A program made the position numbers and the translations under genes. A stretch of 64,000 nucleotides of DNA from Lytechinus pictus (taxonomy: Eukaryota), in NCBI RefSeq assembly GCF_037042905.1, contig NC_087250.1, forward strand, positions 9,240,001 to 9,304,000, in the 5' to 3' direction. The notes under the pieces are model-generated. The model did no database searches, was not told the DNA's origin, and saw only the letters and a program-made list of their open reading frames with translations. Below, piece after piece: positions 20,432 to 49,808 of the stretch. Positions within the stretch are counted from its first letter, which is position 1, and each line of letters starts with the position of its first letter.

Positions 20432-20467
20432 ATGCAGCCTGTTACAATAGTGGAAAATCACCCTCAG
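20432..20467 (+). CDS. MS4A/CD20-like tetraspan membrane protein, coding exon 1 (MQPVTIVENHPQ)
   Basis: Acceptor tcctaaag|C at 20409/20410, ATG in GCCATG context at 20432, strong donor CAG|gtgagt after 20467; phase 0 matches the next exon. Confidence 0.75.
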
Positions 20468-20939
20468 GTGAGTGCTATTATACATGTATTTAATATTAAT
20501 TACACCCTAAACAACAAATAAAAAATAAGTAAGACATAAAACACGGAATGAATTTTAACATCAATAAGACCCAAATCATAGAATGAATATCAAAATTAAT
20601 TATACGTAGATCATGTAATAATTTGTAGCATCAATAAAACATAAATCAAGAAATAATATTTAATATCAATAATAAATAGAACATGGAATAAAAGTTAATA
20701 TTAATAATACAAAAAACTTGGAGTAGTATTTAACGTAATGTTTATAAAAAAACATGTAATGAAATTTGATATACAAAACATGATATAAAGTTTCAAATCG
20801 ATAATACTAAAAACATGGAATGAAACGTATTATTAATATTACACAAAACAAGCTATGAAATGTGATATCAATAGAACAGAGAATAACATTTATCATATCC
20901 TCTTGTGAATATTCATGAGTATTCTAGTCTCTAGATAAT

Positions 20940-21273
20940 GGAGGAGCCGTGGTGTAGTGGTTCTGACTCTCGCCTTGTAAACAGAGAGTTGTGTGTTTGA
21001 ATCCCACCGCGGTCTGGCGTCATTTGGCAAGGCGTTAATCCACACTTTGCCATGCACTCTCGACCCAGGTGATAAATGGGTACCCGGTAGGATGTGAAAG
21101 TCATTGTACATGTAGCTTGTCCAGTACTGTGTGCGCCTCACAGGAATACTCCCCAGGGAGTGGGAATGACTGATTGAATCCGATCACCGGGGTAATTATA
21201 TATCTGTAAAGCGCTTAGACACGTCGTCCCGATGTATTAAGCGCTATATAAAAAAGCGGATTATTATTATTAT
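20940..21273 (+). mobile_element. tRNA-derived SINE (second family)
   Basis: A box TGGTGTAGTGG, degenerate B box, aaatgggtacccggtagg core, aagcgctatata...(ATT)n tail; 5'-truncated copy at 54036-54315. Confidence 0.8.
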
Positions 21274-21671
21274 AAACGATGGGTCAGTTCGCGATCATGT
21301 GACAAAGTATAATTTCAATAGGAAAACGCATCGCTCCAAATAGCTCCGATGTTCAATTTTCGATATCCTTTCATGGGGAGAACTGGGCATGCTTATGCTA
21401 TTATGTTTTATGACTCAACGTTGAACTGTACATGGTCCCTGACTTCACCGGATCCAGATCCGTACCGTTTATCCGCAGCATAAATAAATTTAAAAAAATA
21501 CAAACTTTCGCTAAAATAACCGGCAATCTGAGAAGTCTGTGTGGAATTAGGTCTACATTATCATGCAGAAAATATAATTCCATGACGGCCATCCTTACAT
21601 GATTAGTAAATTGTGAATAAGCATACCTAATAAGGTGAGTCAAGATCCGATACTGTAGAGTTTATAATAAA

Positions 21672-22445
21672 AACTAGAAATTTAACGTGTCCAAAGAACA
21701 CAAATGTCCCCGCTTAACGCGATCATAATTTCATACAATATGATTGAACTTAATATCGTGCAGAAGCCAATATGCATATATATAACAAATTTAGACCTTT
21801 GAACCAACTCGCATATATGATGAGCTGTGACCTTTGACCTACGGACTCCGAATTCGAATTTAGCCTTTGTTTCGTTGTCATCTATCTTCAAACCCATTTT
21901 TTTTTAAATCTGTTGAATATTTCATAAGTTATCATGCGGAATTCAACTCGCATATTTAATGAGCTGTGACCTTTGACCTGCGGACTATGAATTCGAACTT
22001 AGACTGTATTTTGGTGTCATCTTCCTACACACCCACACCCACATTTTTTTTTTTTGTGGAATATTTGTTGAGTTATTTCGCGGAAACCAACTCGCATATC
22101 TAATGAGCTGTGAAATTTGACCTGCGGACTCCAAATTCAAACTTAGCCTGTATTTTAGGGTCATCTACCTAAACATTCACATTTTAAAAATCCATTGAAA
22201 ATTGTTTGAGTTATTGCGCGGAAACCCACTCATATATTTAATGAGCTGTGACGTACCTTTGACCTGCGGACTCGGAATTCGAACTTAGCCTGTATTTTGG
22301 TGTCATCTATCTACACACCAACAATTTTTGATATCCATTAAATATGTTTCGATCTATTGCGCGGAAACAAAGTGGGGGGGGGCGGACGGACGGACAGGGA
22401 CAACGCTTAATGCCCCCTCCGGACTTCGTCTGCGGGGCATGGAAA
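21672..22445. mobile_element. Second Helentron/DINE-like family with ~140 bp tandem units and (GGAC)n
   Basis: About four units containing atgagctgtgacctttgacct, a (ggac)n run, terminal hairpin atgcccc...ggggcat, A-run flanks. Confidence 0.65.
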
Positions 22446-22824
22446 CGATAATATAATAATCATTAATAATAACATAACAATTAGTAATCCTCGGCTGGCC
22501 TTGCAATCAAAGGTAATATTCGAACAGTCGCACGAATATGACAACACATTGATTTTTGTATATACAACACACGATATGTAGATATAGTCTAGACCATATT
22601 ATGACACTTAGATTGATTCTTGGCATTTGATTTTTTCTTTAAAAAAGTGCACACCTAGTTACCAATAAAGCATATAGCATTACCATTTATTTGAAAACAG
22701 GATAAAAGAGCATTGTAGATTAAATGCCTTGCTCACGGGCCGGGGGTCGAACCCCGGACTTTCCATGTATAGCCAGGCGCCTAATTATACCACTCTGCTA
22801 CGGCACCTCCACTGCGGACTCCAA

Positions 22825-23221
22825 ATTTGATTTTTATTGTTTGAATTATACAATATTAATTTTTTTGCAGATTTGACAATATGACTGAACCAAAACTTGT
22901 TAAACAATATTAATTCCACATGTTCAGGGAGAAATACAATTTTATTTCACATGAAAATGAGGAGAAAATTAAAATATTTCATATTTCGTTTAATAAAATA
23001 CAAAAGAGATAGTGAGTTGGTGATGCCATCAGTCCCCTCAATTGCATATCCGACCAGGATGTGCATATAACTGTTTTGTAAAATTAGGCACAACTTGAAA
23101 ATGTCATAACTTTCGATCATATTTTACATCCGAATTTGGTAAAATTTTCAGCGTTATATTTGTTGGATTTTTCTATTTTTATTCAAATTAACTTTATGTT
23201 GGGAGTAGATTTGTCCGTTAA
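22825..23221. mobile_element. Partial Kolobok-like MITE, preceded by a reverse SINE fragment (~22690-22810)
   Basis: Colinear with the right two-thirds of 57826-58420. Confidence 0.65.
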
Positions 23222-23514
23222 GAAAGATACATGCCGGCGTATACCGTATCCACCGGTTGAACCAGATCTGTAGCTACATCTACACCGGCTCTCTTGCTTG
23301 AGCGTGCAATAGTCGATGATTGCACGGGTCTAGTACATGTTTCGGCGTGCTACAGCTTATTCCTCTGAATGAAATGTGAAGCGCATTCATCCAATCAAGA
23401 ATCCATGTGCTGTCTATAATATGATATCAATAATACACCAAGTCACACACCCACACATAAATGCTTGCCTTTTCACTTTTTATTTTCACCTTTATTTTGT
23501 GATAATTTTCCCAG

Positions 23515-23700
23515 CGGGAGGGCTATGCCGAGAACTACAGCCTAGGGGGTGCCACATGTGCCTCTGTGATGCTATTGCTATACGCCATAGGGGTGACGGT
23601 GTGTGGAGGTGTTAGATATATCGCAGATGCGACAGGTGCGATTATTTTACCCCCATCTACCATATCATACGATCAGATCTGCGCCTTCGCTCTCGGAGGG
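23515..23700 (+). CDS. MS4A/CD20-like protein, coding exon 2 (TM1 and start of TM2)
   Basis: Long pyrimidine tract and ttcccag| acceptor, 186 nt open frame REGYAENYSLGGATCASVMLLLYAIGVTVCGG...QICAFALGG, donor GGG|gtaagt; phase 0-0. Confidence 0.88.
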
Positions 23701-25247
23701 GTAAGTTAGTATACCAACCACCCCTTCCCATTTCTCCCCCAATCCTTAGCCAACGGGGGGGGGGGGGGGTACAGGGGGATCTAGCTTTTGCCAATTAAGG
23801 GGGGGGCGGAAAAATATTTTCATCCACCTCCCTGAATTGCCGCTAAAAGCAGATTTTTTAAAGGGGTATTCCAAACTGAAGACTGACGTTTTCTTCTTAT
23901 TCTTCTTCCATCGTGTTCCTCTTCTTTTTCTTCTTATTCGTCTTCTTCTTCTTCTTTCTCCTTCACCTTCTCCCAACCCCCCCCCATTGTTCCCTTAACA
24001 GACTTTAATTCCCCAATGTATTCTACTTTTAATTCCTTACAAATATGATTCCAATTGCAATATATACATGTTATTATACGCTTATTCCGACGTTGTCTGA
24101 ATGAAATGTGAATTTGCTAAACTGAATTCCCTACAATGTATTGTTTACGCTCAAACTTTAGCTGTCTGCTTAAAATTGTATTCCCGAACCAAAATATTGT
24201 GTTATATGACACTTTAATATTGTATTCTCATTTTATTATTTCTTACGGTACTTACAATAGTCGTTTGCTCCCTGCAGAAACGTATTTCAATAATATAATA
24301 TAAGCTAAATGCATTTTATATGATTTTACGTGCAAATTCTTGTGAAATAATAATTTTTAGAGCCCATTTACAAGATGCTGCTAATATACATGTATACTCA
24401 CGACTTAGAGCAAATGGGTATATCCCAACCTCCCCTGATTATGATAGTTTATCGTTATTATCGGTATCAAATATAATAATATTATTATTGTTATCATCAT
24501 CATCATCATCGTCGCCCCAATCTTCATCGTGATCAGCATCATCATCATTTTCATCGTTATCACCAATATCATCATCATCGTTACTCTCTTTAGTCACGTT
24601 AGTAGAAGTAGTAGTAATGAAAGAAGTAATATTGTTTTTTGTATTATCATATTAATCATTATCATTCAGTTTCAGTTTGGTTTATTTTCATTTCAACTCA
24701 AGACAATTTAACAGCAAAAGAAATCATTACAAAGATATAAGTGAATATGCAAGTATATACAGTATGACAATATGACATAGATAAATTAATATTTACAATA
24801 GACACGAAACAATATAACCATTTTAATAATGATATTTACAATGAACTAGGTAATCATAATCATAACTGTATACTATTCATGATAAAGAATTTTGCATTTA
24901 ATTTCTTTTATTTATCTTTATTATCTAAATAAATGTTGAGGAAATGGAGGGATCCACTAAAAAGCAGGGCTTGTTGAGTGTGGATTCCTCATTACCCAGT
25001 ATTATTAGGCTACTGTTATTATTGTTGTTGTTGATATCTGTATCTTTATCACGATCAACATCAATATCATCATGTATCATTGTTTCTATATCATCAATGT
25101 ACACATTTCTACCATCAACGACCCTCTCGTTTTTACCGGAAGTACATGCGAGAGGAACCGACATCAAAGTTCCCTAAAAGTTGTCAAGGTCGTAATTTTT
25201 TACCGACTCTTTAATTATTAAATCAATGTCTTCCTCGTTCTATCCAG

Positions 25248-25304
25248 CTTTATCTTTTAACTTCAATCATCGGATTTGGAACAGCGTGTAGGAACATGTG
25301 CATG
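25248..25304 (+). CDS. MS4A/CD20-like protein, coding exon 3 (57 nt, rest of TM2: LYLLTSIIGFGTACRNMCM)
   Basis: ttctatccag| acceptor, ATG|gtaatt donor, phase 0-0; same size and position as the 19-codon TM2 exon of CD20 as I recall it (YIISGSLLAATEKNSRKCL|V). Confidence 0.85.
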
Positions 25305-28275
25305 GTAATTATGTTTCTTTTATCTGCTCTTAATTGTTTAGTCGGTCACAAATACCGTTAGGAACCGCTGCGAACGTCGTACGAACGATTCTTAGACCCG
25401 ATTCGGAAGACATTCTCAAGAATGCTACACGAAACCAGCGTTCGCAGACCGTTCGTAGATTGTTCGTAGGTTCGCCGCTGGGTTAATGGTTCCTTCCAAG
25501 ATTTTTTTTGCAGTAAACGTTGTACGCTGGCCAGTAGTAATAAAGTCATAACCATGCGAGCTTTTGTAGGTTTGAGAGTCCATATTAATTCCAACACCTT
25601 TAACTTTTACAGTGATCGTATAAACGCCTTCAGTTGATGTGTATAGAGGGCTTTTACGGCCTTATCAAAAACTTAGGCTTTACGAATAATCGTTCGGCAC
25701 TCTTACGATCGACCTCTTGTAAGGTGTTCGCAAAAACTCGTAAGGAGTGGGTGGGTACACAAAAAAGCGACTGTTGAGTAAAATTCTCTCATGAGTATCG
25801 TGAGTTTCACGTACGGCAATCTTGTGACAATATCAATCATAACATGGCCGTACGTTTGACGAAAGAATAAGAAAGAATTTGAATAGGAAATGGGAATGCA
25901 GGTTATTGCCGTTTCCTCAACTTTTATTAACCCGTTTGAGTTGGCATATTCAATTCAACTTCAATACAACACTGTCATTTATATGAAAATCATGTAAAAA
26001 CATTTTCAAATATCCGTTCGAATTTTAGCAGTAGCATATTCCAAATTCTATAACATATAAAAGAGTTAGTCCAAATCATTAATGTTTTATTGAGTATGTA
26101 TCCGACCGAAACAAATTGCCAAAATCACAATATTTTTTTTTTATCTACTCGAATTTTAGTTGGTATGGACATTTTTACTGATCGGACAAATACTTACCAA
26201 AACAGTGTTTACTTTGACCAATACTTTTTATGAGTGGAAGGAAATATTTCATGGGGTACTTTAAGAAAAATTGACATAAGATCGTCTTCCTTTGAAATAT
26301 GGGGAAGGACCTCCCGTGATCCCAGAAAACTTTTTTAAAAATGTCATGGATAATAAATTAATTTGAAATAGAAAGCTTGATAAAGCTGTATATGCTCTAA
26401 AGCTTTGTCTTCCTTTCAATCTATACACACCTTTGAGAGTCTTTCTGAGGGAGGATTAATAACTTGTATTCATTTATTTCTTTTCAACCTTTGCCGAGTA
26501 TTAAAAGACATTACTGTGGCTGACTATACAGATAATGACAAAGCAAATGAATCGTTATAGTTATAATTCCTAACTACATGTATCTACCTTCCCCAAAATT
26601 AGAGGTAGCATGCGTGCCGACAAAAGACGTAGAAAAAATAAAAAAATATATATACAAAAAATGAGCACAGCTTCAAAGCCATCAAGGGTTGTCCCTTTTT
26701 ATGCCTTTGCATTGAATGATCATTCACGCGTACGGCTCAGCAAAACGTTCCTGGATCGAGTCGCCGATTGGTCTACCAGCTAAATATGATTGTTATTCTA
26801 TTTCATAATATTTAAATCATAATATTTTGATCATTGAATGATTGGTCACACTGCTTTGGAAACAAATAAGGGGTGCTGGTTTGTTAAAACAAGACCAAGA
26901 AAAAAGGGTTTCACTTCGATATGACCATGACGACAAAGGAGTCTGTTCAGAAAAAAAAAGACGACAAGAAAAAAAAAATAGATAATAAAGTATTTTCTGT
27001 CCCAAAATTAAGAAGATTAGCGTCAAATCTCTACATTTTAGCATACCAACCTATTTTCTAGAGGTACTGCTTGTGGTATACAAAATACCCAACAGCACTC
27101 CCACTTCCCAGGCTATGATCATCCAGGTGTTTTTATTTAATATCATATTGGATGCAGCAGTAAAGGTCCAGGGCATGGTCCAGGGTCTCTACTTTTATAG
27201 AATCCGAACCAGACCCTCGATTGAACCCAAATTGGTGAGTCCAGGCAAAACACGAATTGTATTGATTTCCATAAGTTACAAAGTCAGTGCCGAACCTGGG
27301 AATGCATGCTTATTGTCATTTAAATATTTGAATAGAATGATACAGCCAACATACAAATAAGGACAAAATATGTAACCACAATCGTTCGTGACAATATTAA
27401 CGTCTAAGCTTTTCCTCGTGGCCCCCAAATCCCTCTTTGTCTCTCCACTTTTCTCACGTTTAGTATTTACCCATTTCATCAGTAAACCTGGTAGTTTTGG
27501 ATCAAAAGAACCAGTCAGACAGAAAGGAATGTAATTCAAAAAAGAGAAGTATGAAAGGTTCAGTTTCATTTTGCTTCTGATGATTTGAAGGAAAAATATA
27601 TTTCTTTTTATTTCATTTAAAAAGGCCTCAATGTACAACGCAACCAAATCCGTTAATATCATGTTAGGCCAATAACGAAAATTATGATATGATGAAAAGC
27701 ATAACCGTGCTATGCACTGAAGGCAACTGAAAAAGGGAGGAAATTATGATGCATTGGGTCAGTTGCATAAAAAGTAGCAATTGCTTTTTCTTGGCTTTTG
27801 TTTTACTTTTGATTAATTCCGTAGGCTATGCATGAACATGAGCAAGCATAATGCTTTTGCTACTAAGTTCAAGAAATCGTTAACCGACTGCTAGATTTTC
27901 CTTGAGGATTTAGCTATTGCTAAAAATCGTATGCATTAAGCAAACGTTTCGCTTGTGCGTTTAAGCACTTGCTTTTTTTTCAAGCTCGGTCAGAACAGCT
28001 TGAGCTTTTGTTTGATCAGGGCGTTCACGTTGTTTTAATCATATTCCCCACTTTTCGCTGTGCAACACAGATGGACTTCACGGCGGTATATTGATTTTGG
28101 ACTTTAAGGCCCGTCGTAAAACACTATCCTGCAATGTATGTTATGTGACATTTTTCGTTTCGCATCTGCAACGGAAACATTCAATCTGCACTTACGTGAG
28201 CAGAATTCTGGTTGCTACTTTGGTAACAGCGATATATCCGATTCAGGACGACTTTCCAGAGCCACATTTGGTTCC

Positions 28276-28577: not shown

Positions 28578-30364
28578 AATTTGAATCTAATCCCCCATTT
28601 CGGGGGAAAGTAAAACATAATGTCCATTACATTGTGTGCTAGAGGCTTATCGTTTATGTACGAGGAGCAAGCAAAAAAAAATGCAAATTCGGATGGTTTT
28701 CAGACGGATATGCCTATTGCATATGCTGTGTACATATCAACACTTCTGCAGCCTGCAGTATACATAGTCTGCTATGCAGACTCGTTGAATCAGCTGAGGT
28801 ACACACACTGCAGATGTGGGTCTACATTTGTAGACTAAGCTGCCATAGTCACGATATTACAGCCCCGCCGCGGGCCCAGTCGGGCATATTATATGATGAC
28901 CAGACGTACATGCATGAAAGCGGGATTTTAACAATTTGGAATGGCATGCATGGTGTTGCATGAAATGATTTTGCAGAAAGCAGATCTATAGGACTTGTAA
29001 CACAAAGCTTAGCAATGATTGCAGAACAGTTTTTTATGGTCGATTCTATTATGTACAATCAATGTTAAAAAAATCGAGTCTATGATTAATCGTTAACCTT
29101 CGTGTTGCCTGACCCTAATGTCGCGTCCCCGATGTTTGCGAAACTCGCTATTTATGCACCTGAGAGAGTACCCTTAGGTCTACCGTATCTAGCTCTACAA
29201 ACATGTACATGTTTTCTTCCTAAAAAGTGCAAATCAAATGCCAAATATATAAATCTATTAAAAAAGAAAGAAGTTAGTTTGACACCACATGTGAGGAAAC
29301 GATGTTATTTGAAAGAAGCGGTAATTTGCAATGCCTTTGCGTTCGACCCTGTGAGTTGTGTTTGCACTAGCGAGACGTCGCTATTTTTCAAACCGCTAGC
29401 AATTGCTTTGTGAAGGCAAGAAAATGGTTCAACCACTAGCAAAGGGTTATGCATATGAAATCAAGCATTTGCTTGGCTAGCTATATGCATAAAAAGTAGC
29501 AATTACTGGTAAGCAATTGCTTCAAGCACAAGCAATAGCGAGCCAAGCAAAAGATTATGCTTCAGCAATTGCTTTATTTCATATGCACAACCCTTTGCCA
29601 GTGCTGAACCCTTTTGTTCTCTTCATAAAGCAATTGCTAGTGGTTCGAACAATAAAGCGACGTCACGCTGCAGAGCGCTGGTGCGAACACGCTCACAGGA
29701 AAGGCAGGACTTGAACGCAAAGGCGTGGCAGTGCAATTTTCAGCGTCTTTCCTATAATAGCCACCTTTCGCAATCATCACGGACGCTAATATTAGGGTCC
29801 CCTAACACAAAAGTTAACGCTTAATCATACACTTGATTTTTAAGATTGATTGTACATTATAGTCAATAGAATCAAACGTAGAAAACTGCTCTACAATCAA
29901 TGCTAAGCTTTGTGTTACAGGGGGGTTACAGGCCCTACAGATCTGCTTTTCGTGTGCAAAATTCTTTCCCGCGACACCCGCACCATACGCATGTACATTA
30001 CGACTGATGGTCATCATCGAGCCTCTACTATGATAGCTGGCTGGAGATATTCGAAATGTAGGGCCCACAATAGATTATGACATGGATAAGAAAGTGGTTT
30101 TTCAAACAAATCGAGAACATATTGAGTGAGGAAAAACTTACTGAATTAAGGCTTAGATATAGATCATTACAGTCCATCGAATCGATATTGCATTTAATGT
30201 GGATTATTGGTGGATCTCTGGCAATCGATTCCATGGGTCAGATCACCTCTCCAGCCGAAAGTATTTCGTACGCGTTGATTATGTACACAGCATGAATACG
30301 TCTGAACATGGACCTATTACGTGATAGGTCCATGGTCTGAACACGTACCAGCCGAAGTTTCGGG

Positions 30365-31381
30365 TTTTTTGTCTCACCTGCATAGCAGAGTGAGACAATA
30401 GGCGCCGCTTTTCCGACGGCGGCGGCGGCGTCAACACCAAATCTTAACCTAAGATTAAGTTTTTGAAATGACAGCATAACTTAGAAAGTATATGAACCTA
30501 GTTCATGAAACTTAAGCAATAGATTAATCAAGTATTACTAAACATCCTTCCTAAGTTTCATGTCACATGACCAAAATCAAAGGTCATTTAGGGTCAATGA
30601 ACTTAGACCATGTTGGGGGAATCAACATCAAAATCTTAACCTAAGGTTAAGTTTTTGAAATGTCATCATAACTTAGAAAGTATATGGACCTAGTTCATGA
30701 AACTTGGACATAATGTTAATCAAGTATTACTGTACATCCTGCTTGAGTTTCACGTCACATGACTAAGGTCAAAGGTCATTTAGGGTCAATGAACTTTGGC
30801 CAAATTGGGTGTATTTGTTGAATTACCATCTTAACTTTGAAAGTTTATCGGTCTCGTGCATAAAACTTGGACATAAGAGTAATCAAGTATCACTGAACAT
30901 CCTGTGCGCATTTCAGGTCACATGACCAAGGTCAAAGGTCAATTAACTTTGGCCACAATGGGGGTATCTGCTCAATTACCATCATAACTTTGAAAGTTTA
31001 TGGATCTGATTCATGAAACTTGGATATTAGAGTAATCAAGTATCACTGAACATCCTGTGCAAGTTTCGCGTCACAAGATCAAGGTAAAAGGTCATGTAAG
31101 GTCATTGAACTTTGGCCATTTTAGAGGTAATCATTAGATTGCGGTCATTACTTTCAAATTTTATAGATATAGTGTATAAAATATGGATATAGGGGTAATC
31201 AAGTTTCACTGACAAGTTTTAGGTCACATGATCAAGGTCAAATGTCAATGAACGTGGTATTGTTTCATTATATGAATAGTGTTTTTGTGAATAATTATTT
31301 GATAGTAGTTTTCAAAGTCAGCACTGCTGCTATATTGAATCGCGTGATGCAGGTGAGACCGCCGGAGTCATTCCACTTGTT
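30365..31381 (+). mobile_element. Helentron/DINE-1-like element (same family as 11825-13002) inserted in the right foldback arm
   Basis: GTCTCACCTGCA (30371) / TGCAGGTGAGAC (31348), inserted in a T run; absent from the mirror position in the left arm. Confidence 0.8.
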
Positions 31382-33059: not shown

Positions 33060-35370
33060 CAAGTTGGATATGACTTGCTGGAAGTTCTGGTATATATGGG
33101 GTGTCTACTTCAAGAATCCGACGGGTGCCACCTCGGCACACTTGGGCATTTTTTTATTGACGTCATAGGCAGGCCCATTATTTCACATACCTCTTGAATA
33201 TGAATTTCATATCTCAAGCAATAAACATGTCATGTTTGGTATCAAATTAAAGCTAATGAAAAATCAAGTGTAAATTTATGAATCACTGGACATTTAAATC
33301 ACGCACAGGTTAGTTTAAGGTCGTTTAAGTTCATAGAAGGTCAAATTGCCTAGGAAATGTAAGTCATACATACAATGTGGAACATATCATGTTTTAAATA
33401 CAAACAAGTTAGATATTATGTGAATGTATTGGCAAAGGTTAAAGGTAAATTACAGTTTTTGGAACGATCTCAAAATGACTTTTTACAGAATGTAATATAA
33501 TGATCGCCAAAGTGTCTGTTTGTATGAATAAAAAATATGTCCCAAAGGATTCTGGAAGAAATTGTGTAATTGCTGAGAAATAAGCAAAATAAGCGCGGAT
33601 TCGGTCACTTCCGTCGGGTCTTTATTCCAGCAATAATAATACACTGTCCCACGTGTGCCTATCTGTGTGGGCGATCTTCAGTGTGATTGTTTTTAGCTAG
33701 ATATTATGATTTCACAAAGTTCAGTTTATGTAACTGTACCAGATCTAGATCCACGATGATATATCAATAGTTTACCTTGGTTTTACAGACTTTCTCACGA
33801 AATCAGTGTTTTACTGCAACTACGTTCATTTAGCTTTAAAATGAGGGTGTGCATATAAAAAATCCGACCGGTGCTACTTTGGCATCTTGAGGAATTTTAT
33901 TTTTGGCACGTCATAAACCACACCAGCTTTCTTATATTCCTCTTAGATATTAAGCGGAATAAACATATCATGTTGGATATCGAATTAAATCAAATTCATA
34001 ATAAAATCCACATATATGAATCACTAGGTATCTAAAACTTTTCCAGGAAAATTAAAGGACATTTTAAGGTTATAACAGGTCAAACTTGGCCACCAATGCA
34101 ATTAATGCAACATTAACAGATTTCCATGAATACTTTCTGTTACTTTCTGTTGTTATAAGTTTATTAGTGATTTTGATTTATTTTTACTTTTATGTATTAC
34201 ATTTTTCTTTCTCATTGATTATTATGTTCCTTTTGTTGACGATTTTTATGTGATATTGTTTTGTTATGTTTTTAATTTATGTTGATACAGGGCCCCTTGG
34301 TCGAGCAGTTCTTATAACTGAAAGGGCTACCCTGTTAAATAAAACGACAAATAAAATAAAAATAAATAAATATAATGTGGAATATCTCATGTTTGGTTGC
34401 GGGTGTGTATATTAAGAATGTGACGGGTTCTACCCCCTCACCCTTTGGCAATTTCTATTTTCTGACTTCGGCCGTCGAATCATATATTTCATAGTTCATA
34501 CTACAAGTGTGAATCGAAGTAACACAGCTCTGGCAGAGGCATGTAGTGGAGATTGTTGGTGAAGGGGAATTCTATGATCATCTGGTCGAAGAGGAATGGT
34601 ACAGAGGGTAGTTGTGAGAGGAATATAATTTGTGTATAATTTGTGTAGATTATTTGGAACTACATGAAATGATTTGATACAAAATGATATATTAAACGTT
34701 ATGTTTAAAGTCCTGTTAAACTCGCGCAATCATCAACCTTTCATGCGTGTAAATGACCAAAAGGTCACCTTTACATCTTCTTCACCTTTTCTAACCTTTA
34801 AATGTACATTCCACTTTCCATAGGCTTTAATTTAATACCAAATATGAAATGTTTATTGTGTACACTAGATAAGTCATAATTAAGAGGTTGACCTATGTTA
34901 TGTATGTGAAAGGGATGGCGTGGTTCATAACGTCAAAAAATAACGTTGCCCAAGTTTGCAAAAGGAGCCTTCGTCAGGTTCTTAATCTGCACATCCTCAA
35001 CTTAACGTTCAGCCAAAAATAGACCTACATAAATAATGCCCAACTTGTTTGTATTCCAAACATACTATATTCCACACTATATGTTGCATTGGGCCCTACT
35101 TACATTTGTGATCCAATTTGACCTTTTATGACCTTAAATGACCTTTAATAGCTCTGGACGCGTTTTAAAAGCGTAGCGATTCATATTATGTGGACTTTAT
35201 TTTGCACTTTATCTAATGTGATTTCAAACATGGTATTCCGCTAAATAGGAGAGTCATATTTAAGAGGAATGTAACTGAAAGTTGGTGTGATTTTTGACGT
35301 CAGAAAAATAAAATGCCTCAAGATGCCAAGGTAGCATTCATCGGATTCTTAATATATGCACACCCTCAAA
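33060..35370. mobile_element. Older foldback-type element with tandem subunits in both arms, hosting later insertions
   Basis: gagggtgtgcatataaaaaatccga (33843) is inverted at tcggattcttaatatatgcacaccctc (35341-35367); direct subunit at ~33100; LINE 3' UTR fragment at ~34130-34370. Confidence 0.55.
33443..33835 (-). mobile_element. ~390 bp TTAA-flanked MITE, complete
   Basis: TTAA|AGGTAAAT...ATTTAGCT|TTAA. Confidence 0.8.
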
Positions 35371-37277: not shown

Positions 37278-37548
37278 GGGGGCGCTTCATAGAGCTGTTT
37301 CTAAGTTAAGGGGCCTGTTGCAGAAAGAGTTGCGTTTAAACGCAAATCGAAATATCAAGCGCAAGTCCCGAATACGGGTGTTTCATTGGAAAAAAATCAA
37401 GTTGCGCGAGATTTTTTGAGTTGCGTTCGATTGCAACTCTTTCTGCAACGGGTCTCAGAGCGACTTTAAGAACGACTGGTTATCCTTACATTGCCAAGGA
37501 ATATATCATTTACCACAAGAAAGGATCACCCACCAGTTTATGAACAGG
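37278..37548. mobile_element. Small MITE (family of 54743-54903) with a second MITE nested at ~37310-37457
   Basis: Inner TIR gttgcagaaagagttgc / gcaactctttctgcaac; outer halves match the 54743 element. Confidence 0.6.
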
Positions 37549-37668
37549 AGATGGTTACGAACGCCAGCAAACACATTTTCTTACTTGATCCATACAAAAC
37601 TAGTTTAAGGGAAACCGGTTAAAGAAAAAACACTAAGAACCGTGTCTATGTTTCTTTCCCTATTTCAG

Positions 37669-37797
37669 GTTCGGTTCTTCCTGATAGCATGTATCTTGTC
37701 AGTGGTGGGAAGTTTATCAGCTTGCGGGTACTTCTCCTACTACATCTACTTGTCCGTAATCCCAGGGATTGATTTCCAGCAGTGTGCAGATTGTCTG
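37669..37797 (+). CDS. MS4A/CD20-like protein, coding exon 4 (TM3 and loop: VRFFLIACILSVVGSLSACGYFSYYIYLSVIPGIDFQQCADCL)
   Basis: tttccctatttcag| acceptor, CTG|gtaaat donor, 129 nt, phase 0-0, hydrophobic helix. Confidence 0.88.
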
Positions 37798-37844
37798 GTA
37801 AATACAACGACTAGCAGTTATTGGGTCCTACTAATCAATACTTC

Positions 37845-37867
37845 TATACTACTACTACTACTACTAT

Positions 37868-37951
<84 letters not shown>

Positions 37952-38102
37952 CACTACTACTTTTATTACTAGCTGCTAGCCTGCTACTTCTTTCTAGCTG
38001 CTATGTATGCTACCACTGTATTCTACGTATTCTACCACTGTTCCTTCTACGACTACTGCTACTTCTACACTACTTCTACTACTACTGCTTCTACTACTAC
38101 TG

Positions 38103-38144
<42 letters not shown>

Positions 38145-38690
38145 ATAATAATAATAATAATAATAATATTGATAACACTACTACTACTATCACTTCTGTT
38201 ACAACACTACTACTACTATCACTTCTGTTACAACACTACTACTACTATCACTTCTGTTACAACTACTACTACTACTACTACTATTACTAGTACTACTACT
38301 AATGTTGTTACTACTAAAACTACTAGTACTTCTAATAATGATACTTTTACTACTATAACTACTACTACTTCTACTTTTTCGTAGCAGCAGGGACCAATTT
38401 GAAGCAGCGTGATGCAGTATGTTTGGTAAATGCAATGGCTAGCAGTTATTGGGTCTATAGTTATACTACTTCTACTACCAATACTACTACTACCACTACT
38501 ACTACCACTACTGATTTTACTACTACTGCTTTTACTACTACTGTTACTATCAAGGGGGTAGCTAGGGGCGGTGGGGCGGTCGCCCCCCAAAAAGAAAAAA
38601 GGAAGGGAGAATGAGAGGAGAAAAGGAAGAAAGGTAGTTATGTATGCTACTACTACCACTACTGCTTTTACTACTACTGTCACTATCAAG
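37845..38690. repeat. (TAC)n compound microsatellite just downstream of exon 4
   Basis: Read directly; same triplet as the 2-5 kb array but on the opposite strand. Smaller run at ~46500-46690. Confidence 0.95.
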
Positions 38691-43300: not shown

Positions 43301-43542
43301 ACACTGTAAAAATTGTGGTGTTAAAACTGACACCAATTGGTGTTAATAGAGGACCACACCCAGAGGTGTTAAAATAAATCCCTAGAGATTGAACATAACA
43401 CCAAAGAGTGTAAATGTAACAACCATAGGTGTTGTAATAACACCTATAGGTGTAAAACTAACACCACCAATTTAGCACCGGTGTAAAATAACTGGTGTGG
43501 TCCTCTATGTACACCGGTTAACACCACATTTGTTTTTCTGTG
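43301..43542. mobile_element. CACTG-type MITE (related small ones at ~43992-44157 and ~46352-46490)
   Basis: ta|cactgtaaaaattgtggtgttaa...ttaacaccacatttgtttttctgtg|ta. Confidence 0.65.
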
Positions 43543-44585
43543 TACGTATTAACAATTTATGGAGGTTTTTTTTCTCAGACTTACAATAAATGTCTTCCTC
43601 TCAGACGACTTAGATTTAAAAAAAAACTTAAGCCATGGTTTAAACATAGAAAATAAAGAGATGTGTTAAACAATAATTTATATTAAAAACATATTAAATT
43701 TCTACATTATACAGAAAAGAATCTTAAACTAGATTTCGAATGTTTATTCAAAACAGATACGTGATGCCAAAGGAGATTACTACTTTTCTAAGTTTCATAT
43801 GTTCTAAGGAAACATTAATAAAACATTGAATACAATTATACCTCTGTATCTTAATGTCACGGTACACTTATTAGTGAATCCAAGAAGATCGCTGATGGTT
43901 TCAATGATTAAAAAAATATTGGTCATAAAATAGCAGGAATGAATGTTAGTAAAACTTGCAACAACTTTGCATCATTCTTGGGAAACAAGTTCACTGTAAA
44001 AAATGAAGTGCTAATTTAGCACTTACAGTGCATGTGTAGTGACCGCACTACGAGTGCTGATTTTCTAGTTAAAATTTTAACTAGAAAATCAGCACTCGTA
44101 GTGCAGTCACTATACAAGCACTGTAAATGGTGAATTAGCACTTTATTTTTTACTGTGTTGTCCCCACACAACTTATCGTTTTACCTATCACAGAAAGATA
44201 TATATATATATACATATATATATATACGTATATATGATTTTGCTTTGTCTTTCAAAAGTGGAAAAGCTTCTGGTTTTTTACTCTATTGATTGCACCGTTG
44301 TTAAGAGAGTTATACATTTTATTTCTAAACCACTTTGCAGTATTTTTAATTTATGTATTAAAAAGGGTATTGTAACTCAAAGTCTGAATATTGCTAAAGT
44401 TATCCCTATACATAAAATGGGACCAAAAGATTTATTTACAAATTATAGACCTATTTCCTAACTACCCCCTTTTTCGAAAGATTAATCTATACATCTATAT
44501 TTTTCAAACCAACAGAAATAAACAAAGATATAATATTAGAAATTCAGCGGATACTCGTCCGATATTATTCTTTTTACAACAATAT

Positions 44586-45480
44586 GTATAAGAATTGAAA
44601 AGGTAATTACATTCATTTATTTAGTTGTATCCTCTTTAAGGATATTCATAACATATAATGATTAAGAATATTCCAGAATGTCTCAGTAAAGCTTTATCAG
44701 GAATGCCTATTCAATGAGAAATAGAGCAATTTTTGTTATTTCTGGAATGCACAAAGAGAGGCAATAATAGATTGCAACACAATACAGATTCCTAGAGGTA
44801 GTGGAAATGGACAATAGGATTTGCTCTGTTGTTTACATTGTTAATTTCAATGAGGTCATCCAAGAGTCTTCTAGAAATGGACTATTCTAGAAAGAAGGAT
44901 AATTTCCCTTAAAGATAACTAGTAGCTTCCAGAATAGTTGATAATTTGTATATAAGCTGGCAGTTTCTTCAAGGACATCATCACATCAGATCAGAACTCA
45001 GAGTTTCACGACGGACTTGATGTCAGAGCATAATTTATTACCAACTGAAATACAACATCTATCTTCTGTGGAATTATTTGCACGCCATCAATGAACTGCT
45101 TGCAGTTACTTTGAGAGAGGAATTCTCAGTTCTCATCGAGATCCTCAAGCTGTTTTAATTAACGCTTTTCAGCCTATGGATTATTAACATCGTCTTCACA
45201 GACATTTCAACTCGTTACAGTGTCTCTTGGTATTCATCGTGCTTCAACATCAATTTCATCATCGCCATCATCATGAACTTTAATTTAAGGAATCTTCGCC
45301 AACCGACTTGGATTTTATTTGGATTTAATACATAACTATCATAACCTTGAATTGCACATTAAATCTTCAAGACATGTTATATGTTTGTTTTTGTTTTGTT
45401 GATTGATCTATTTCCTGCAGTAAAAGAAAAGGAAATCAAATTCAAAACTAAATTTCCATTGTTATTTGTTGCAGTATATA
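44586..45480 (+). mobile_element. Possible second solo LTR
   Basis: Interrupts the LINE C-terminus; starts TGTATA, TATATAA at ~44949, AGTAAA at ~45419; 3' end and TSD unclear. Confidence 0.4.
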
Positions 45481-47472
45481 TATATTTTATGTAGGGGTCC
45501 CATTATGGAATAAGTTCCCTCAAAATATTAAACAGCGCAAATCTCTACAAAGCTGTATAAGACATTTCAAAATCCATTTTAATGCTAATAGTAATACTGA
45601 TATAGATTCAATTGTATACATGTAATGTTTGTTTGTTCTGTATATCCCGAATGTATTTGTTTATATTACATAGGTTATGTAGATTCGAATCAGCGATAGG
45701 TCAATACGCCATCACATGACCATAGCAGCGAGGATCGCATTTGTTATATCCAAGGTTTTTACGTCCCCTCAGGGAATATAACGTCACCTCAGGGAATATA
45801 ACGTCACTCGCTGCTTACAAGTTGCGTAATCAGGTAGTTTATTTGATGTACGCGCTAGTGTTAACGCGTCGATTGCATGAAGAACGCGCTTGATGTATTT
45901 TCCAAAAAAAAATCCATTATGACGTAGATGGATCAGAGCTGTAGCAAGAATTTCGGGTTGGAGCCAGATAATAAATGCAATCTCTGATGGCGAATCCACA
46001 TAGACTATATAATATAACAGATATTGCCTGGTCTATCTTTTTAATAAATAACATTTCAACTCCCCTCCGAAGCTATATTTTTAAAATATAACTCCGTCGG
46101 GGAAAGGAAATGTTACATTCAAACTCTAGGTAGGCAACATCTGTATAATATTGTGCTGTTTTGTGTAAATTTCAAGATCATTTATCTGTAAGTTCTTTGT
46201 AACTTTTCTTTGATCCTCCCTCTATTCGTAAATATTCTCACTTGTGTCATAATGTATTTTATTTGAAATATTCATATTTCTGAATTGTGTTAGTTTTTAT
46301 GAAGATTGTGGTAAATAAAGTTTCCATTTCAATGTCTAGTAGTACTAATATCACTCTAAAAACGAAAAAACTAATGGCACTTTTCTAATTCAAATTTCGA
46401 ATTACCTGTAGGCCTACTGAATTAGCACTCCGAGGTGCAGTCATTATACATCCTCCTTAGAAGCTGAATTAGGTCTTTATTTTTGGAGTGTAGGTTTATA
46501 TACTACTACTATTAGGCTTAGTACTATGACTACTACTATTAATACTACTACTACAACTAAAACTACTATACTACTACTACTACTTCTACTACTACATATA
46601 CTATGACTAACTACTGCTAAAACTACAATACTACTACTACTACTACTACTAATACTATACTACTACTACTACTAAAACGACTGGTACTACGACTTGCGAT
46701 TAATGATATAGATGTTAATAATGAAAAATTATACTAGGGCCTACTAATAATGATTACAACTATGATATCTGCACTCATTGGATACAGCAATTTTCTATGT
46801 ACTATGTCCACCGCCAATTGGAAGGATCCTCGTTTGACCAATAATGCAAGTCACACCGATCGTATCGAATTCATACCGATCAAAGCAATTACGTAATTTC
46901 CAGTGACATAATGTCGTTCGGTTTGGAGTCGGTTTCGTTGGTGTGACTATTAAGCCAATGCATACAGTTTCAATTGCTGGCGTACAGCTGGCCCACCGCC
47001 TTAAAAAAGGATAAATGAATAAATAACAAGAGAGGGGAAAATAGAAAAAAAATAACGAATGAAACAAACATTAAAAACGACAGAAAATTGAACTTAAATA
47101 TCATAAAGAAGGAAACATAATGAAAAGAAATGAATAAAATACAATAAGGAGATCAATAAATAAAAATCACGACCAAGAAAATAAGGAAAAGTAAGAAAAG
47201 GATAGGAAACGGAATAAAATTTTACATTAGCTTCTGAATTTTACGTCAGAATCTATCACAAAATTAGAATTTCGCTCGCAGATTTTCATAAATTTTGCCC
47301 TACATGCCATGTCTGACCCCCCCCCCCTCTAAAAATGATTCAACATCTCATATACATGTAAGATAAACAGAATTATTAGTAGTAAAACATCATCATTATC
47401 ACGATTATTGCTATCATCAAAGTTGTAGTGATTTTTGTTGTTGTATTTACTATTATTATTTTGCATTTGCAG

Positions 47473-47598
47473 TATTACGTAATCCCTAATTGTGTCTCGG
47501 CTTTTTTGAGTTTCATCGGTTTCTTCACTGCCCTGGCCGGGTCTATCTACTGCTGCCAAGGCATGTCCTCCCCCGATAACAGAAGAACCTCTCAATTG
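47473..47598 (+). CDS. MS4A/CD20-like protein, coding exon 5 (TM4 followed by SIYCC)
   Basis: ttttgcatttgcag| acceptor, TTG|gtgagt donor, 126 nt, YYVIPNCVSAFLSFIGFFTALAGSIYCCQGMSSPDNRRTSQL; juxtamembrane Cys after TM4 as in MS4A proteins. Confidence 0.9.
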
Positions 47599-47629
47599 GT
47601 GAGTCGTGCCTATACATTGGCGAATGGTA

Positions 47630-47858
47630 CACTGCAAAAACTCCGGTGTTGATTTAACACCAGACCGGAATCTACATTCACACCAGAGAAGTATTGGAAT
47701 TAAACCGATGCTGTTTTGATACTAATTGGTGTTGTATAAACATCTATCTGGTGCTAGACCAAAACCAAACTGATATTGTTTAACACTTCTCTGGTGTCAT
47801 GGGTGTGGACATATAGATCCCAGTCTGGTGTTAAATCAACACCGGAGTTTTTGCAGTG
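47630..47858. mobile_element. CACTG-ended MITE, same family as 35473-35714
   Basis: Same TIRs and TA flanks; starts 31 bp after the end of exon 5. Confidence 0.9.
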
Positions 47859-48654
47859 TATACATCCATTTCGTTTACTTTCCGTTAAGGGCAGGTCTTA
47901 AGGGTCCATCTCAAATTATCTCAGATTTAGATTTTTTTTTCATTTCTCATGAAATTATATACCAAGATATATATTTTACAAGTATAAATAATATAGTTTC
48001 GTCAAAATAATGACGCAATAATGATGACATATAGTATGTGTACAAAACATGAACATTGAAAGCAACCAGTGCAAGGTTTAATGAGAGCATGGAAGAAACG
48101 CAAGTAACACAAGTCCCTCATCTGGGTAGATACAACTCGTAATTTTTCAAACGAAAAGGGAATGACGCAACAATTACATTCAATAAAAAGAATATATCAT
48201 AATGATGGCAATCTGTATAGAACAGACAAGGATAATAGTAATGCAAAGAAACTTCATCCCCCCAAAATCAAAACGCAAAAAGGAAAGATACTTAGATTAA
48301 TCTAGTTCGTTTACTGGTAGTGCGGCTAATCATAAATTTGGTTTAAAGGGGCAGTTCACCCTGACGAAAAGTTTAACGTAAAATATCAGAAAATATCATA
48401 TTCCTTCGGTATACGAAATGACAATTTATTTTACACCGGCTCCTTGAAGATAAAATTATAGTCATGAACCATAAAAAAATGAAAGGTATGCTTTTTATAT
48501 TGCATAACATATGGGGCAGCTGCCCAAAAAACAAATCTAAATATTAAAATTATAATAACATTTTTAATCTCCGATGGGTTTTTCCTAATTCTTCATAGAC
48601 CAGGAAAAAGGGTTTGACCTCAAATAAATTGCAATAATTTTTTTTTTCGCCGTA

Positions 48655-49540
48655 ATGCATTTCCATAAAGTCTCCAAAATTACACACTAAAAGTGCAGAG
48701 TAATCCGATTGGTAGAAAGATGTCTAATTTGCATAACTAAAATATCGCTGCCATCGTGAGATCAGTACAAATACTGATCTGACCATAACACTTTCAAAAG
48801 GTGTGATTAAAACATTAAACTTTCACCAGTGTTCTATCTTAACATGAGCTTCATTTTTGAAATTAGAAGGTAAGTCAGATTTGACCTCTGCTGACCCCGA
48901 GAGGTCAACGACCTCGAATCTCAGAAAATTGATGTTTTTCGTCATATGATAATAACAGGGCCCGCTGGGAGAACAGTTTTCGGAACTGAAGTGGCTACCT
49001 TACGTAATTATTCCTTTATTATTAGTATTACTTCATGATAAATGCAGTTATAATGCAAAAAATGGTATTTGATATTGATTTTCAAGGTATATAGGGAATG
49101 TTGTGTATTATAAAATTTGACCTTTGTCCCTGGAGAGATGGCAAAGGTCTATGACTTTAACATTTTAGAACACTAACCATCACTGTTTTTTTTTATAAAC
49201 TGGCCTCTCGTGAACAAATCGCAATACAATTTATTTCACCGCATGGCATTTTCATAAAGTCCCCAAAGTCCAGAAATATACAAGTTGCGGGAAGGCGTCT
49301 AATTAGCATAATCCAAGAATGGCTGCCATCTGAGAATTGTTTCATGATCGTAATAATACAAAAAACACAAATACTGGTGTGATCATAACACTATTACAAA
49401 ATTATGATAAAACATGAAACTTTCACCAGTGTTATATCTTACCACATGGGCTTCATTTTAACGTTGAGATGTAAGTCAGATTTGACCTCTGCTTACATTT
49501 AGAGGTCAATGACCTTATCGTCAACGAACCTCAAAATATC
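48655..49540. repeat. Diverged direct repeat (~280 bp blocks about 590 bp apart), probably a transposon arm
   Basis: aaactttcaccagtgtt...gtaagtcagatttgacctctgct...agaggtcaa occurs at ~48820-48910 and ~49417-49510. Confidence 0.6.
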
Positions 49541-49766
49541 AAAAACTTTATGTTCTCCATCATTAGTTCATGATATAACAATGCAAATAAAAAGGTGGGT
49601 TATTTGATCCTGAAGATTAACTTTGAGTGTACCATCAAATTTAATGATAACTTTTCATGATTTTTTAACATCAGGTAAAAGAAAGAGGAGAAACAGTGTA
49701 AAATGTTATTACTTAGTAATTATTAACTTGAGATTTTCTTCTCTATCTTTCTTTTTATGTTTACAG

Positions 49767-49808
49767 TTAGTTGCAGCTCCCCATCAGCCACAGATTATCA
49801 ACTATTAG
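49767..49808 (+). CDS. MS4A/CD20-like protein, terminal coding exon (LVAAPHQPQIINY*)
   Basis: Long pyrimidine tract and tttacag| acceptor, phase 0, TAG at 49806-49808. Confidence 0.72.
   Translation, partial: LVAAPHQPQIINY

What the first reader, a model, noticed from the sequence alone, without database searches (positions are those of the whole stretch)
20432..49808. Hidden six-exon gene for a divergent invertebrate MS4A/CD20-like tetraspan protein
Seen: six exons (36, 186, 57, 129, 126, 42 nt) splice in phase 0 into a 191-aa ORF with four hydrophobic segments and very short termini. Introns are 3.0, 1.5, 12.4, 9.7 and 2.2 kb. Established, from recall: MS4A genes have phase-0 introns, a 57-nt exon finishing TM2 (CL|V in CD20, CM|V here) and Cys residues after TM4, and they act as immune signalling subunits and non-GPCR chemosensors. 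Inference: a poorly characterised invertebrate family member and a candidate immune or chemosensory receptor. The usual G..W.G Trp at the start of TM2 is absent (QICAFALGG).
Basis: partly seen in the sequence, partly recalled or inferred. Interest (0 to 1): 0.7.

Follow-up and report, generated by a model that had tools for sequence, protein, structure and literature searches.

The report
Sea-urchin CD20-like four-helix membrane gene
The six exons form a real, expressed sea-urchin gene for a small four-helix membrane protein that folds like the CD20/MS4A family but does not pass that family's sequence test, so it is a modest find with an unknown job.

Summary
All six exons sit at the stated coordinates with AG/GT borders in phase 0 and give 191 aa. 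A 659-nt contig from run X1 joins exons 4|5|6 exactly at the predicted borders. The Lytechinus variegatus orthologue P0002 (186 aa) matches along the whole length at 82% identity. NCBI's model for this locus (P0001, 111 aa) stops early because it reads through the exon-3 donor.

The CD20-like reading is partly supported.
- Against: Pfam CD20 is hit by 0 of 11 family proteins and 0 of 3 exons at E<=10. The family profile finds nothing among PDB sequences.
- For: the AlphaFold model's best PDB matches are Fc-epsilon-RI chain B, sarcospan and CD20.
- For: hhalign links the family at 96.8% to urchin 240-aa tetraspans that score just under the CD20 threshold.
- For: one such gene shares three intron positions, including the 57-nt exon.

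The family was found only in three sea-urchin species, is clustered, and evolves fast. Function is untested. I infer a palmitoylated auxiliary membrane subunit.

The parts
20432..20467 (+). Exon 1 (36 nt): start codon and first 12 residues of the cytosolic N-terminus
   Evidence: ATG..CAG|gtgagt. Identical N-terminus in P0001, P0002 and P0003.
23515..23700 (+). Exon 2 (186 nt): conserved GY(A/S)E.Y motif, TM1, first outer loop, start of TM2
   Evidence: cag|..|gtaagt, open in phase 0. 100% identical to P0001. All 16 sampled words are held by 8 runs.
25248..25304 (+). Exon 3 (57 nt): rest of TM2 and the inner Cys-x-x-x-Cys turn, ending CM|V
   Evidence: cag|..|gtaatt. A 57-nt exon also occurs at the same alignment columns in paralogue B and in the C13 CD20-like gene.
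25305..25361 (+). Read-through of the exon-3 donor, which gives the 18-residue tail and stop of the public 111-aa model
   Evidence: The tail of P0001 maps directly behind exon 3 in frame. RNA support for this form was not tested.
37669..37797 (+). Exon 4 (129 nt): TM3 and second outer loop with two Cys
   Evidence: Piece 37668-37796 of X1 contig record 3, no mismatches.
47473..47598 (+). Exon 5 (126 nt): TM4, juxtamembrane YCC motif, basic tail
   Evidence: Joint 37796->47472, GT..AG (cut +1), skips 9675, in the X1 contig at depth 243.
49767..49808 (+). Exon 6 (42 nt with stop): last 13 residues
   Evidence: Joint 47597->49766, GT..AG (cut +1), skips 2168, in the same contig.

Best explanation
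This is a real, transcribed six-exon gene of Lytechinus pictus. The species name comes from the names. It encodes a 191-aa membrane protein with four transmembrane helices and short termini that are probably cytosolic. It has two short outer loops, the second carrying two cysteines, and a YCC motif just after helix 4. It belongs to a small, fast-evolving family arranged in a local cluster and found only in sea urchins. The family is most likely a very divergent branch of the CD20-like tetraspan superfamily (MS4A, Fc-epsilon-RI beta, sarcospan). It is not MS4A proper. By analogy with those proteins I infer how it works: it sits in the plasma or vesicle membrane, probably S-acylated on the juxtamembrane cysteines, and packs sideways against other membrane proteins as an auxiliary or scaffolding subunit. 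The variable outer loops would be the only exposed surface. Shown here: the gene model, splicing of exons 4-6, the paralogues, the four-helix model and the fold ranking. Inferred: homology to CD20-like proteins, topology, acylation and the partner-subunit role.
For: Gene model:
- Exons and splice sites are as described.
- The full-length orthologue P0002 is 82% identical (157 of 191 columns).
- A spliced 659-nt contig of depth 243 in X1 joins exons 4|5|6.

Family:
- 7 proteins at E<=1e-3 among 1.84 billion representatives.
- 7 at E<=1 among 5312 candidates in the word-indexed search.
- Every named member is from L. pictus, L. variegatus or Strongylocentrotus purpuratus.
- At least three copies lie within about 80 kb on contig C6.

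Fold:
- AF2 model of P0002 with alignment A1: pLDDT 72, pTM 0.65, four long helices.
- Foldseek against PDB: ranks 1-3 are Fc-epsilon-RI chain B (E 0.008-0.012, TM 0.50-0.68). Sarcospan is rank 4 and CD20 rank 6.
- VIA-align against 48161 chains: 8k7t_B Z 16.5 (146 aligned, rmsd 2.8), sarcospan 15.0 and 14.5, 8yvu_F 14.5. These are the top four rows.

Profile link:
- hhalign of A1 against the urchin 240-aa tetraspans (A2) gives 96.8%, E 2e-10, over 137 columns.
- Controls: reversed alignments give 0.2%. The best of 40 block-shuffles gives 20%.
- A2 members hit PF04103 at E 1.5e-4 (whole profile), 4.1e-4 and 0.59 (3 of 4).
- The model of P0015 has Fc-epsilon-RI chain B, sarcospan and CD20 as all nine top Foldseek rows.
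- ESM Atlas: 26 of 30 feature hits for P0002 and 27 of 30 for P0012 are PF04103-bearing clusters.

Introns:
- The L. pictus C13 gene, orthologue of P0015, has phase-0 introns and a 57-nt exon.
- Introns 2, 3 and 4 fall in the same alignment columns as in the window gene in 2 of 3 MAFFT modes. Introns 3 and 4 coincide in all 3.
Against: - PF04103 is not matched by any of 11 family proteins or 3 window exons at E<=10.
- The window's exons are not among the 30 six-frame PF04103 matches in the genome.
- Profiles A1 and A2 find 0 PDB sequences at E<=10.
- hhalign against the two urchin sarcospan-like exons gives under 1%.
- No Foldseek match reaches E<=0.001.
- In VIA-align the margin over a tetraspanin (uroplakin, Z 14.3) and soluble helix bundles (Z 14.1) is about 2, and helical models typically reach Z 14.
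- CD20 itself is only rank 25 there, at Z 11.6.
- The Atlas structure search names no CD20 cluster. One row is a MARVEL-bearing cluster.
- The bridge family's PF04103 scores are no better than a probably spurious DUF4418 hit (E 9.8e-5).
- The A2 gene on C19 carries helices 1-4 in one open frame, so the intron pattern is not universal.
- dN/dS between the window gene and paralogue B is 1.24, not different from 1 (Fisher p 0.52).
- Three ribo-depleted RNA runs, about 6% read, show no joint reads for the gene.
Confidence: 0.6

Rival explanations
1. This is a lineage-specific four-helix membrane protein with no common ancestry with CD20/MS4A. The resemblance would be the generic up-down four-helix bundle that many small membrane proteins share. 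The urchin families A1 and A2 would then be an independent invention, as Zuccolo et al. argued for invertebrate 'MS4A-like' sequences.
For: - No Pfam or PDB sequence hit.
- Foldseek E-values are all above 0.001.
- VIA-align Z scores of 14.3-14.1 for a tetraspanin and for soluble copper-storage bundles lie close behind the top rows.
- Zuccolo 2010 (PMC2826416, passages read) concluded that the invertebrate similarity is limited to short transmembrane stretches and may be convergent.
Against: - Two different structure aligners both put CD20-family chains first. This holds for two separately predicted models built from overlapping alignments (A3 contains six of the eight rows of A1): ranks 1-4 and ranks 1-9.
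- Language-model features point to PF04103 clusters in 26-27 of 30 hits.
- The best sub-threshold Pfam family for 3 of 4 A2 members is CD20.
Confidence: 0.27
2. The locus is a decaying or redundant duplicate. Its main product would be the annotated 111-aa two-helix read-through form, with the six-exon mRNA a minor by-product.
For: - NCBI's only model for the locus is the 111-aa form.
- dN/dS against paralogue B is about 1.2 in helices, loops and tails alike.
- Three total-RNA runs show no joints.
Against: - The spliced contig has depth 243, carries exons 4-6, and has room for exons 1-3.
- About 62 nucleotide differences from paralogue B have produced no stop or frameshift, and both indels are in frame.
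- All ten splice sites are canonical in both copies.
- The family keeps its motifs out to S. purpuratus at 47% identity.
Confidence: 0.08
3. The fold is CD20-like but the mechanism differs. The protein would act on its own as a ligand-sensing receptor or cation channel, as proposed for MS4A olfactory receptors and TMEM176 (recalled, not from a call), rather than as an auxiliary subunit.
For: The two outer loops are the most variable parts. Identity to the orthologue is 6 of 15 and 9 of 15 in the loops, against 24 of 25 and 27 of 30 in helices 2 and 4.
Against: The outer loops are only about 15 residues each, which leaves little surface for a binding site. dN/dS in the loops (1.26) is no higher than elsewhere.
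Confidence: 0.05

Closest known systems
Fc-epsilon-RI beta chain (MS4A2), chain B of 8k7t, 8yvu, 8y81 and 8ywa
   Same: It is the best structural match: Z 16.5, 146 of 186 residues aligned, rmsd 2.8, and Foldseek ranks 1-3. Both have four helices, short loops and small size.
   Different: Sequence identity is 13-16% with no detectable sequence-profile match. The urchin tails are about 20-25 residues, and I saw no paired YxxL/I signalling motif of the kind the beta chain carries (its ITAM is recalled). That chain B is the beta subunit is my inference from its length and fold, because the tool gives only entry titles.
Sarcospan (9c3c_n, 8yt8_S)
   Same: Second-best fold match, at Z 15.0 and 14.5. 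The chain names are confirmed. It is a tetraspan that acts as an auxiliary subunit of a larger membrane complex.
   Different: The genome has its own sarcospan-like exons on C3, which hit PF04103 at 26.5-27.2 bits. These show no profile similarity to this family.
CD20 (MS4A1; 6y90, 6y92, 6vja)
   Same: Same overall bundle, at Foldseek rank 6. There are two cysteines in the second outer loop and cysteines next to the membrane on the inner side. The corresponding CD20 features are recalled.
   Different: The fit is weaker (VIA Z 11.6, rank 25). The second outer loop is far shorter.
Urchin 240-275-aa tetraspans (A2: P0012-P0015; genes on C19 and C13)
   Same: They are homologous by hhalign at 96.8% (controls). 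They share the GY(A/S)E.Y motif before helix 1 and the YCC motif after helix 4. The C13 gene shares the 57-nt exon and three intron positions.
   Different: They are longer, with Gln/Pro-rich N-termini and Cys-rich tails. They score 20.9-22.3 bits on PF04103, while the window's family scores nothing. The C19 gene lacks the internal introns.

Membership tests
CD20-like family (Pfam PF04103: MS4A, sarcospan, TMEM176) | Match to the PF04103 profile at or above its gathering score (27.9 bits) | tested here: not met
   0 of 11 family proteins (P0001-P0011) and 0 of 3 window exons match at E<=10. No window exon is among the 30 genome matches.
CD20-like family (Pfam PF04103: MS4A, sarcospan, TMEM176) | Four-helix transmembrane bundle whose nearest solved structures are family members | tested here: met
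   Top four of 48161 chains are Fc-epsilon-RI chain B and sarcospan, Z 16.5-14.5. Foldseek ranks 1-4 and 6 agree, at E 0.008-0.08. The margins are small.
CD20-like family (Pfam PF04103: MS4A, sarcospan, TMEM176) | Profile-level homology to proteins that carry the domain | tested here: inconclusive
   hhalign gives 96.8% to A2, but A2 members reach only 10.6-22.3 bits on PF04103. The Atlas reports PF04103 on 52% of the nearest echinoderm cluster. hhalign to the sarcospan-like exons gives under 1%.
CD20-like family (Pfam PF04103: MS4A, sarcospan, TMEM176) | Both termini cytosolic, short first outer loop, second outer loop with a disulfide | tested here: inconclusive
   The model has helices 22-48, 54-83, 86-118 and 128-162. 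Arg residues lie in the helix 2-3 turn and after helix 4. Two Cys occur in the second loop in 7 of 8 aligned members. The orientation is inferred and no topology predictor was available.
MS4A proper (vertebrate MS4A1-MS4A18) | Conserved exon plan with phase-0 introns and a 57-nt exon ending helix 2 | not testable with these tools
The plan is present here and in an urchin CD20-like gene. No vertebrate gene was available, and searches found no text on it.
MS4A proper (vertebrate MS4A1-MS4A18) | Detectable sequence similarity to MS4A proteins; family reported only in jawed vertebrates | tested here: not met
   There is no sequence hit to CD20 or Fc-epsilon-RI beta chains in PDB. Zuccolo 2010 places MS4A in jawed vertebrates only (passages read).
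Tetraspanin (PF00335) | Pfam match and a large second outer loop with the CCG motif | tested here: not met
   The only hit is E 0.13 (12.3 bits) on the truncated model P0001. The second loop is about 15 residues with no CCG motif.
MARVEL (PF01284) / claudin-PMP22 | Pfam match, or best structural match to family members | tested here: inconclusive
   No Pfam hit at E<=10. Synaptogyrin scores Z 12.7, claudin-15 Z 11.6 and synaptophysin Z 11.4, all below the CD20-family rows. One Atlas structure row is a cluster with MARVEL on 39% of members.

The most novel reading that the evidence does not exclude
The urchin tetraspans, this gene included, are true relatives of vertebrate MS4A/CD20 genes. They would be marked by an inherited phase-0 gene plan with a 57-nt exon that closes helix 2. 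The MS4A-type family would then predate vertebrates, contrary to the published conclusion that invertebrates lack it. In sea urchins it would have become a clustered, rapidly diverging set of surface subunits used in immune or gamete/chemical recognition.
Probability: 0.25. Interest if true: 0.6.

Novelty: new variant of a known kind. Interest (0 to 1): 0.35.

Why it matters
First, it corrects a public gene model. The locus is annotated as a 111-aa protein, but the expressed mRNA encodes 191 aa with four helices.

Second, it defines a sea-urchin-restricted, clustered, fast-evolving tetraspan family with no Pfam domain and ties it to the CD20-like fold. The tie rests on structure, profile comparison and intron positions.

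Third, if vertebrate MS4A genes share the 57-nt phase-0 exon, that shared gene plan would be concrete evidence for a pre-vertebrate origin of the MS4A-type family. Zuccolo et al. (2010) answered that question in the negative on sequence similarity alone.

L. pictus can, as I recall, be bred and genetically modified in the laboratory, so a knock-out test is feasible.

Tried and rejected
- Homodimer test (complex prediction, two copies of P0002): no verdict, score 0.00. I take nothing from it.
- RNA holders: no listed holder of exon 2 is on record as RNA. X1 was labelled only as a guess, but its spliced contig shows that it holds RNA-derived sequence.
- Runs X9-X11: no joints for this gene at about 6% of reads. 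This says little about expression.
- Alignment-based search of the window's own genome was not accepted by the tool. I did not pursue it another way.
- hhalign of the family profiles against the urchin sarcospan-like exons gave under 1%.
- Literature on the MS4A exon plan and on the family's LOC identifiers (0 papers) turned up nothing usable.
- The search of earlier findings near this place returned nothing.
- The tetraspanin, claudin and MARVEL readings were rejected. They have no profile support and rank lower on fold.
- A test for positive selection on the loops was inconclusive. dN/dS is 1.26 on 25 codons, the same as elsewhere.
- No topology predictor was available. I used hydropathy and the AF2 model instead.


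Full report
**What is in the sequence.** The window is AT-rich animal DNA at G000:C6:9240001-9304000 of an 812-Mb assembly. Database names identify the species as the sea urchin Lytechinus pictus. A scan for AG|open frame|GT segments of the stated lengths recovered every internal exon at the predicted place:
- exon 2 at 23515-23700
- exon 3 at 25248-25304
- exon 4 at 37669-37797
- exon 5 at 47473-47598

Exon 1 (20432-20467, ATG..CAG|gtgagt) and exon 6 (49767-49808..cag|..TAG) close the model. For the 129-nt and 126-nt exons the scan gave two candidates each. The ones kept are those that match the orthologue. All borders are phase 0 and the joined frame is 576 nt, 191 aa. Hydropathy gives four hydrophobic stretches.

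**Is it a real gene?** Four lines of evidence say yes.
1. A word-indexed search with exon 2 found three longer proteins (3 at E<=0.01 among 19 candidates).
   - P0001 is the NCBI model for this very locus (111 aa).
   - P0002 is a 186-aa L. variegatus protein.
   - P0003 is a 187-aa L. pictus paralogue.
2. P0002 matches the six-exon product end to end, with 157 identities over 191 columns (82%).
3. P0001 shares exons 1-3. It then reads straight through the exon-3 donor into intron 3 for 18 codons. The public model is therefore truncated, and "hidden" is only half right.
4. One run guessed to be RNA (X1, Logan contigs) holds a 659-nt contig of depth 243.
   - Its letters 302-430 lie on 37668-37796 and letters 431-556 on 47472-47597.
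   - It then jumps to 49766. Both jumps have GT..AG ends and there are no mismatches.
   - The jumps skip 9675 and 2168 bases, exactly the predicted introns 4 and 5.

Three deep ribo-depleted RNA runs (X9-X11, about 6% of reads used) gave no joints for this gene.

**The family.** An exhaustive phmmer search of 1.84 billion representatives with P0002 found only 7 proteins at E<=1e-3, the query included. A profile search added two more (7 at E<=1 among 5312 candidates). Every member that carries a name is an "uncharacterized protein" of L. pictus, L. variegatus or Strongylocentrotus purpuratus.

In the genome the window gene has two neighbours.
- Paralogue B (P0003) lies on the minus strand at C6:9312520-9320844.
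- A third copy lies at C6:9335044-9338486. It is the orthologue of L. variegatus P0006, with 93% and 88% identity in two exons.

Paralogue B has the same five intron positions, all phase 0, including a 57-nt exon, and much shorter introns.

The copies diverge fast. Over 174 codons dS is 0.109, dN is 0.136 and dN/dS is 1.24, not different from 1 (Fisher p 0.52). The ratio is similar in helices (1.17), outer loops (1.26) and tails (1.31). Against the orthologue, the two predicted outer loops keep 6 of 15 and 9 of 15 residues, while helices 2 and 4 keep 24 of 25 and 27 of 30. Both copies keep open frames and canonical splice sites.

**Testing the CD20/MS4A reading by sequence.** This test fails.
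- Pfam PF04103 is not matched by any of the three larger window exons.
- It is not matched by any of 11 family proteins at E<=10.
- No window exon is among the 30 six-frame PF04103 matches in the genome.
- The family profile A1 finds no PDB sequence at E<=10.
- P0002 alone finds only noise: CD44 at E 0.3-0.5.

**By structure.** An AlphaFold2 model of P0002 with alignment A1 has pLDDT 72 and pTM 0.65, with helices at 22-48, 54-83, 86-118 and 128-162.

Foldseek against PDB gives no match at E<=0.001. Ranks 1-3 are chain B of three Fc-epsilon-RI entries (E 0.008-0.012, TM 0.50-0.68). Rank 4 is a chain of the dystrophin-glycoprotein complex and rank 6 is CD20. That complex chain, and its counterpart in 8yt8, is sarcospan.

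The Foldseek-independent VIA-align search of 48161 chains puts the same proteins first:

| Chain | Protein | Z |
|---|---|---|
| 8k7t_B | Fc-epsilon-RI chain B (146 aligned, rmsd 2.8) | 16.5 |
| 9c3c_n | sarcospan | 15.0 |
| 8yvu_F | Fc-epsilon-RI entry, chain F | 14.5 |
| 8yt8_S | sarcospan | 14.5 |
| 8jj5_A | uroplakin complex chain (a tetraspanin, by recall) | 14.3 |
| 6q6b_B | soluble copper-storage bundle | 14.1 |
| 8a6m | synaptogyrin | 12.7 |
| 4p79_A | claudin-15 | 11.6 |
| 6y92_A | CD20 | 11.6 |

The order favours the CD20-like family, but the margin is about 2 Z units. The tool warns that helical models commonly reach Z 14. I recall that the AlphaFold2 weights predate all of these solved structures, so memorised templates are unlikely. 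That point comes from no call.

**By a bridge family.** One weak PF04103 match in the genome (L030, contig C19) is a 206-residue open frame. It has four hydrophobic segments and the same YCC motif after helix 4. Its relatives (P0012-P0015, alignment A2) are urchin proteins of 238-275 aa.

hhalign of A1 against A2 gives 96.8% probability, E 2e-10, over 137 columns, running from a shared GY(A/S)E.Y motif before helix 1 to the YCC motif. Controls on the same alignments are far lower. Reversed alignments give 0.2%. The best of 40 block-shuffles gives 20% and the median 0.3%.

A2 members score on PF04103 at E 1.5e-4 (22.3 bits, whole profile), 4.1e-4 and 0.59. That is 3 of 4, all under the 27.9-bit cut-off. 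A probably spurious DUF4418 hit is just as strong.

A model of P0015 (pLDDT 64) has Fc-epsilon-RI chain B, sarcospan and CD20 as all nine top Foldseek rows, with best E 0.0012. ESM-Atlas feature searches place P0002 and P0012 next to PF04103-bearing clusters in 26 and 27 of 30 hits. The nearest is an echinoderm cluster in which 52% of members carry the domain. The Atlas structure search names no CD20 cluster.

**By gene structure.** The L. pictus orthologue of P0015 (C13:18164057-18167436) has coding exons of 195, 201, 57, 204 and 144 nt. All have AG/GT borders in phase 0. In a joint alignment its introns 2, 3 and 4 fall in the same columns as those of the window gene in two of three MAFFT modes. 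Introns 3 and 4 coincide in all three. The 57-nt exon ends ..NCV| there and ..CM| here. Introns 1 and 5 lie 4-7 columns apart in poorly aligned tails.

I could not check whether vertebrate MS4A genes have it, because no vertebrate gene was to hand. Three literature searches also found nothing. The C19 gene has no introns across the helices, so the plan is not universal.

**What it most likely is and does.** It is a probable remote member of the CD20-like tetraspan superfamily. I put that at about 70%, but it does not pass the family's curated sequence test and it is not MS4A proper.

Zuccolo et al. 2010 (PMC2826416; passages read) found MS4A only in jawed vertebrates. They judged invertebrate look-alikes, including a sea-urchin sequence, possibly convergent. 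The shared fold ranking and intron plan argue for homology but do not settle it.

On mechanism, the solved relatives are small subunits that pack against other membrane proteins (the IgE receptor, the sarcoglycans). This protein has tails of about 20-25 residues and outer loops of about 15. It has a Cys-x-x-x-Cys turn after helix 2 and a YCC motif after helix 4. I therefore infer an S-acylated auxiliary or scaffolding subunit, with low confidence for any specific pathway. An immune or chemosensory role is possible but untested.

**Verdict.** The gene is real and the public annotation should be extended. The family assignment is plausible but indirect. This is a divergent variant of a known kind, of moderate to low interest unless the intron plan proves to be shared with vertebrate MS4A genes.

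Noticed in passing
window 2114-5000: A 2.9-kb (TAG)n microsatellite of about 963 copies at 85% match. It explains the extreme GC skew (0.81) of that stretch.
   Followed up: partly
window 37839-38375: A (TAC)n array of about 179 copies starts 42 bases behind exon 4, inside intron 4. Read mapping marks it as a skipped repeat.
   Followed up: no
window 17112-18443 (+) and 61624-63670 (-): Open frames with reverse-transcriptase domains (RVT_1, E 2.5e-25, 2.2e-19 and 1.8e-13). The second is split over two frames, so these are retroelement remnants flanking the gene.
   Followed up: partly
window 30000-31333 and 33335-34001 (intron 3): Tandem 153-192-nt repeats carry heavy strand-biased RNA coverage (depth 160-385) and many internal skips. 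This looks like transcripts of a dispersed repeat family rather than of this gene.
   Followed up: no
window 48949-48996 (intron 5): A piece of about 48 nt is covered by hundreds to about 2000 RNA reads per run that continue into unrelated sequence on both sides. It is a short fragment of some abundant RNA encoded elsewhere.
   Followed up: no
window 8944-9016 (+): A weak tRNA-like Rfam match (31.8 bits against a cut-off of 29) that ARAGORN does not call. It is possibly a tRNA-derived repeat.
   Followed up: no
G000:C3:67825724-67825921 (L013) and C3:28243351-28243467 (L014): Two sarcospan-like exons. L014 hits PDB sarcospan chains at E 4e-8 and both hit PF04103 at 26.5-27.2 bits. They are the strongest CD20-domain signals in this genome.
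   Followed up: partly
L012:1976-2071 (G000:C6, third paralogue): The L. variegatus model P0006 lacks the 19-residue segment of the 57-nt exon. A matching open stretch exists in the L. pictus copy, so that public model probably skips an exon.
   Followed up: no
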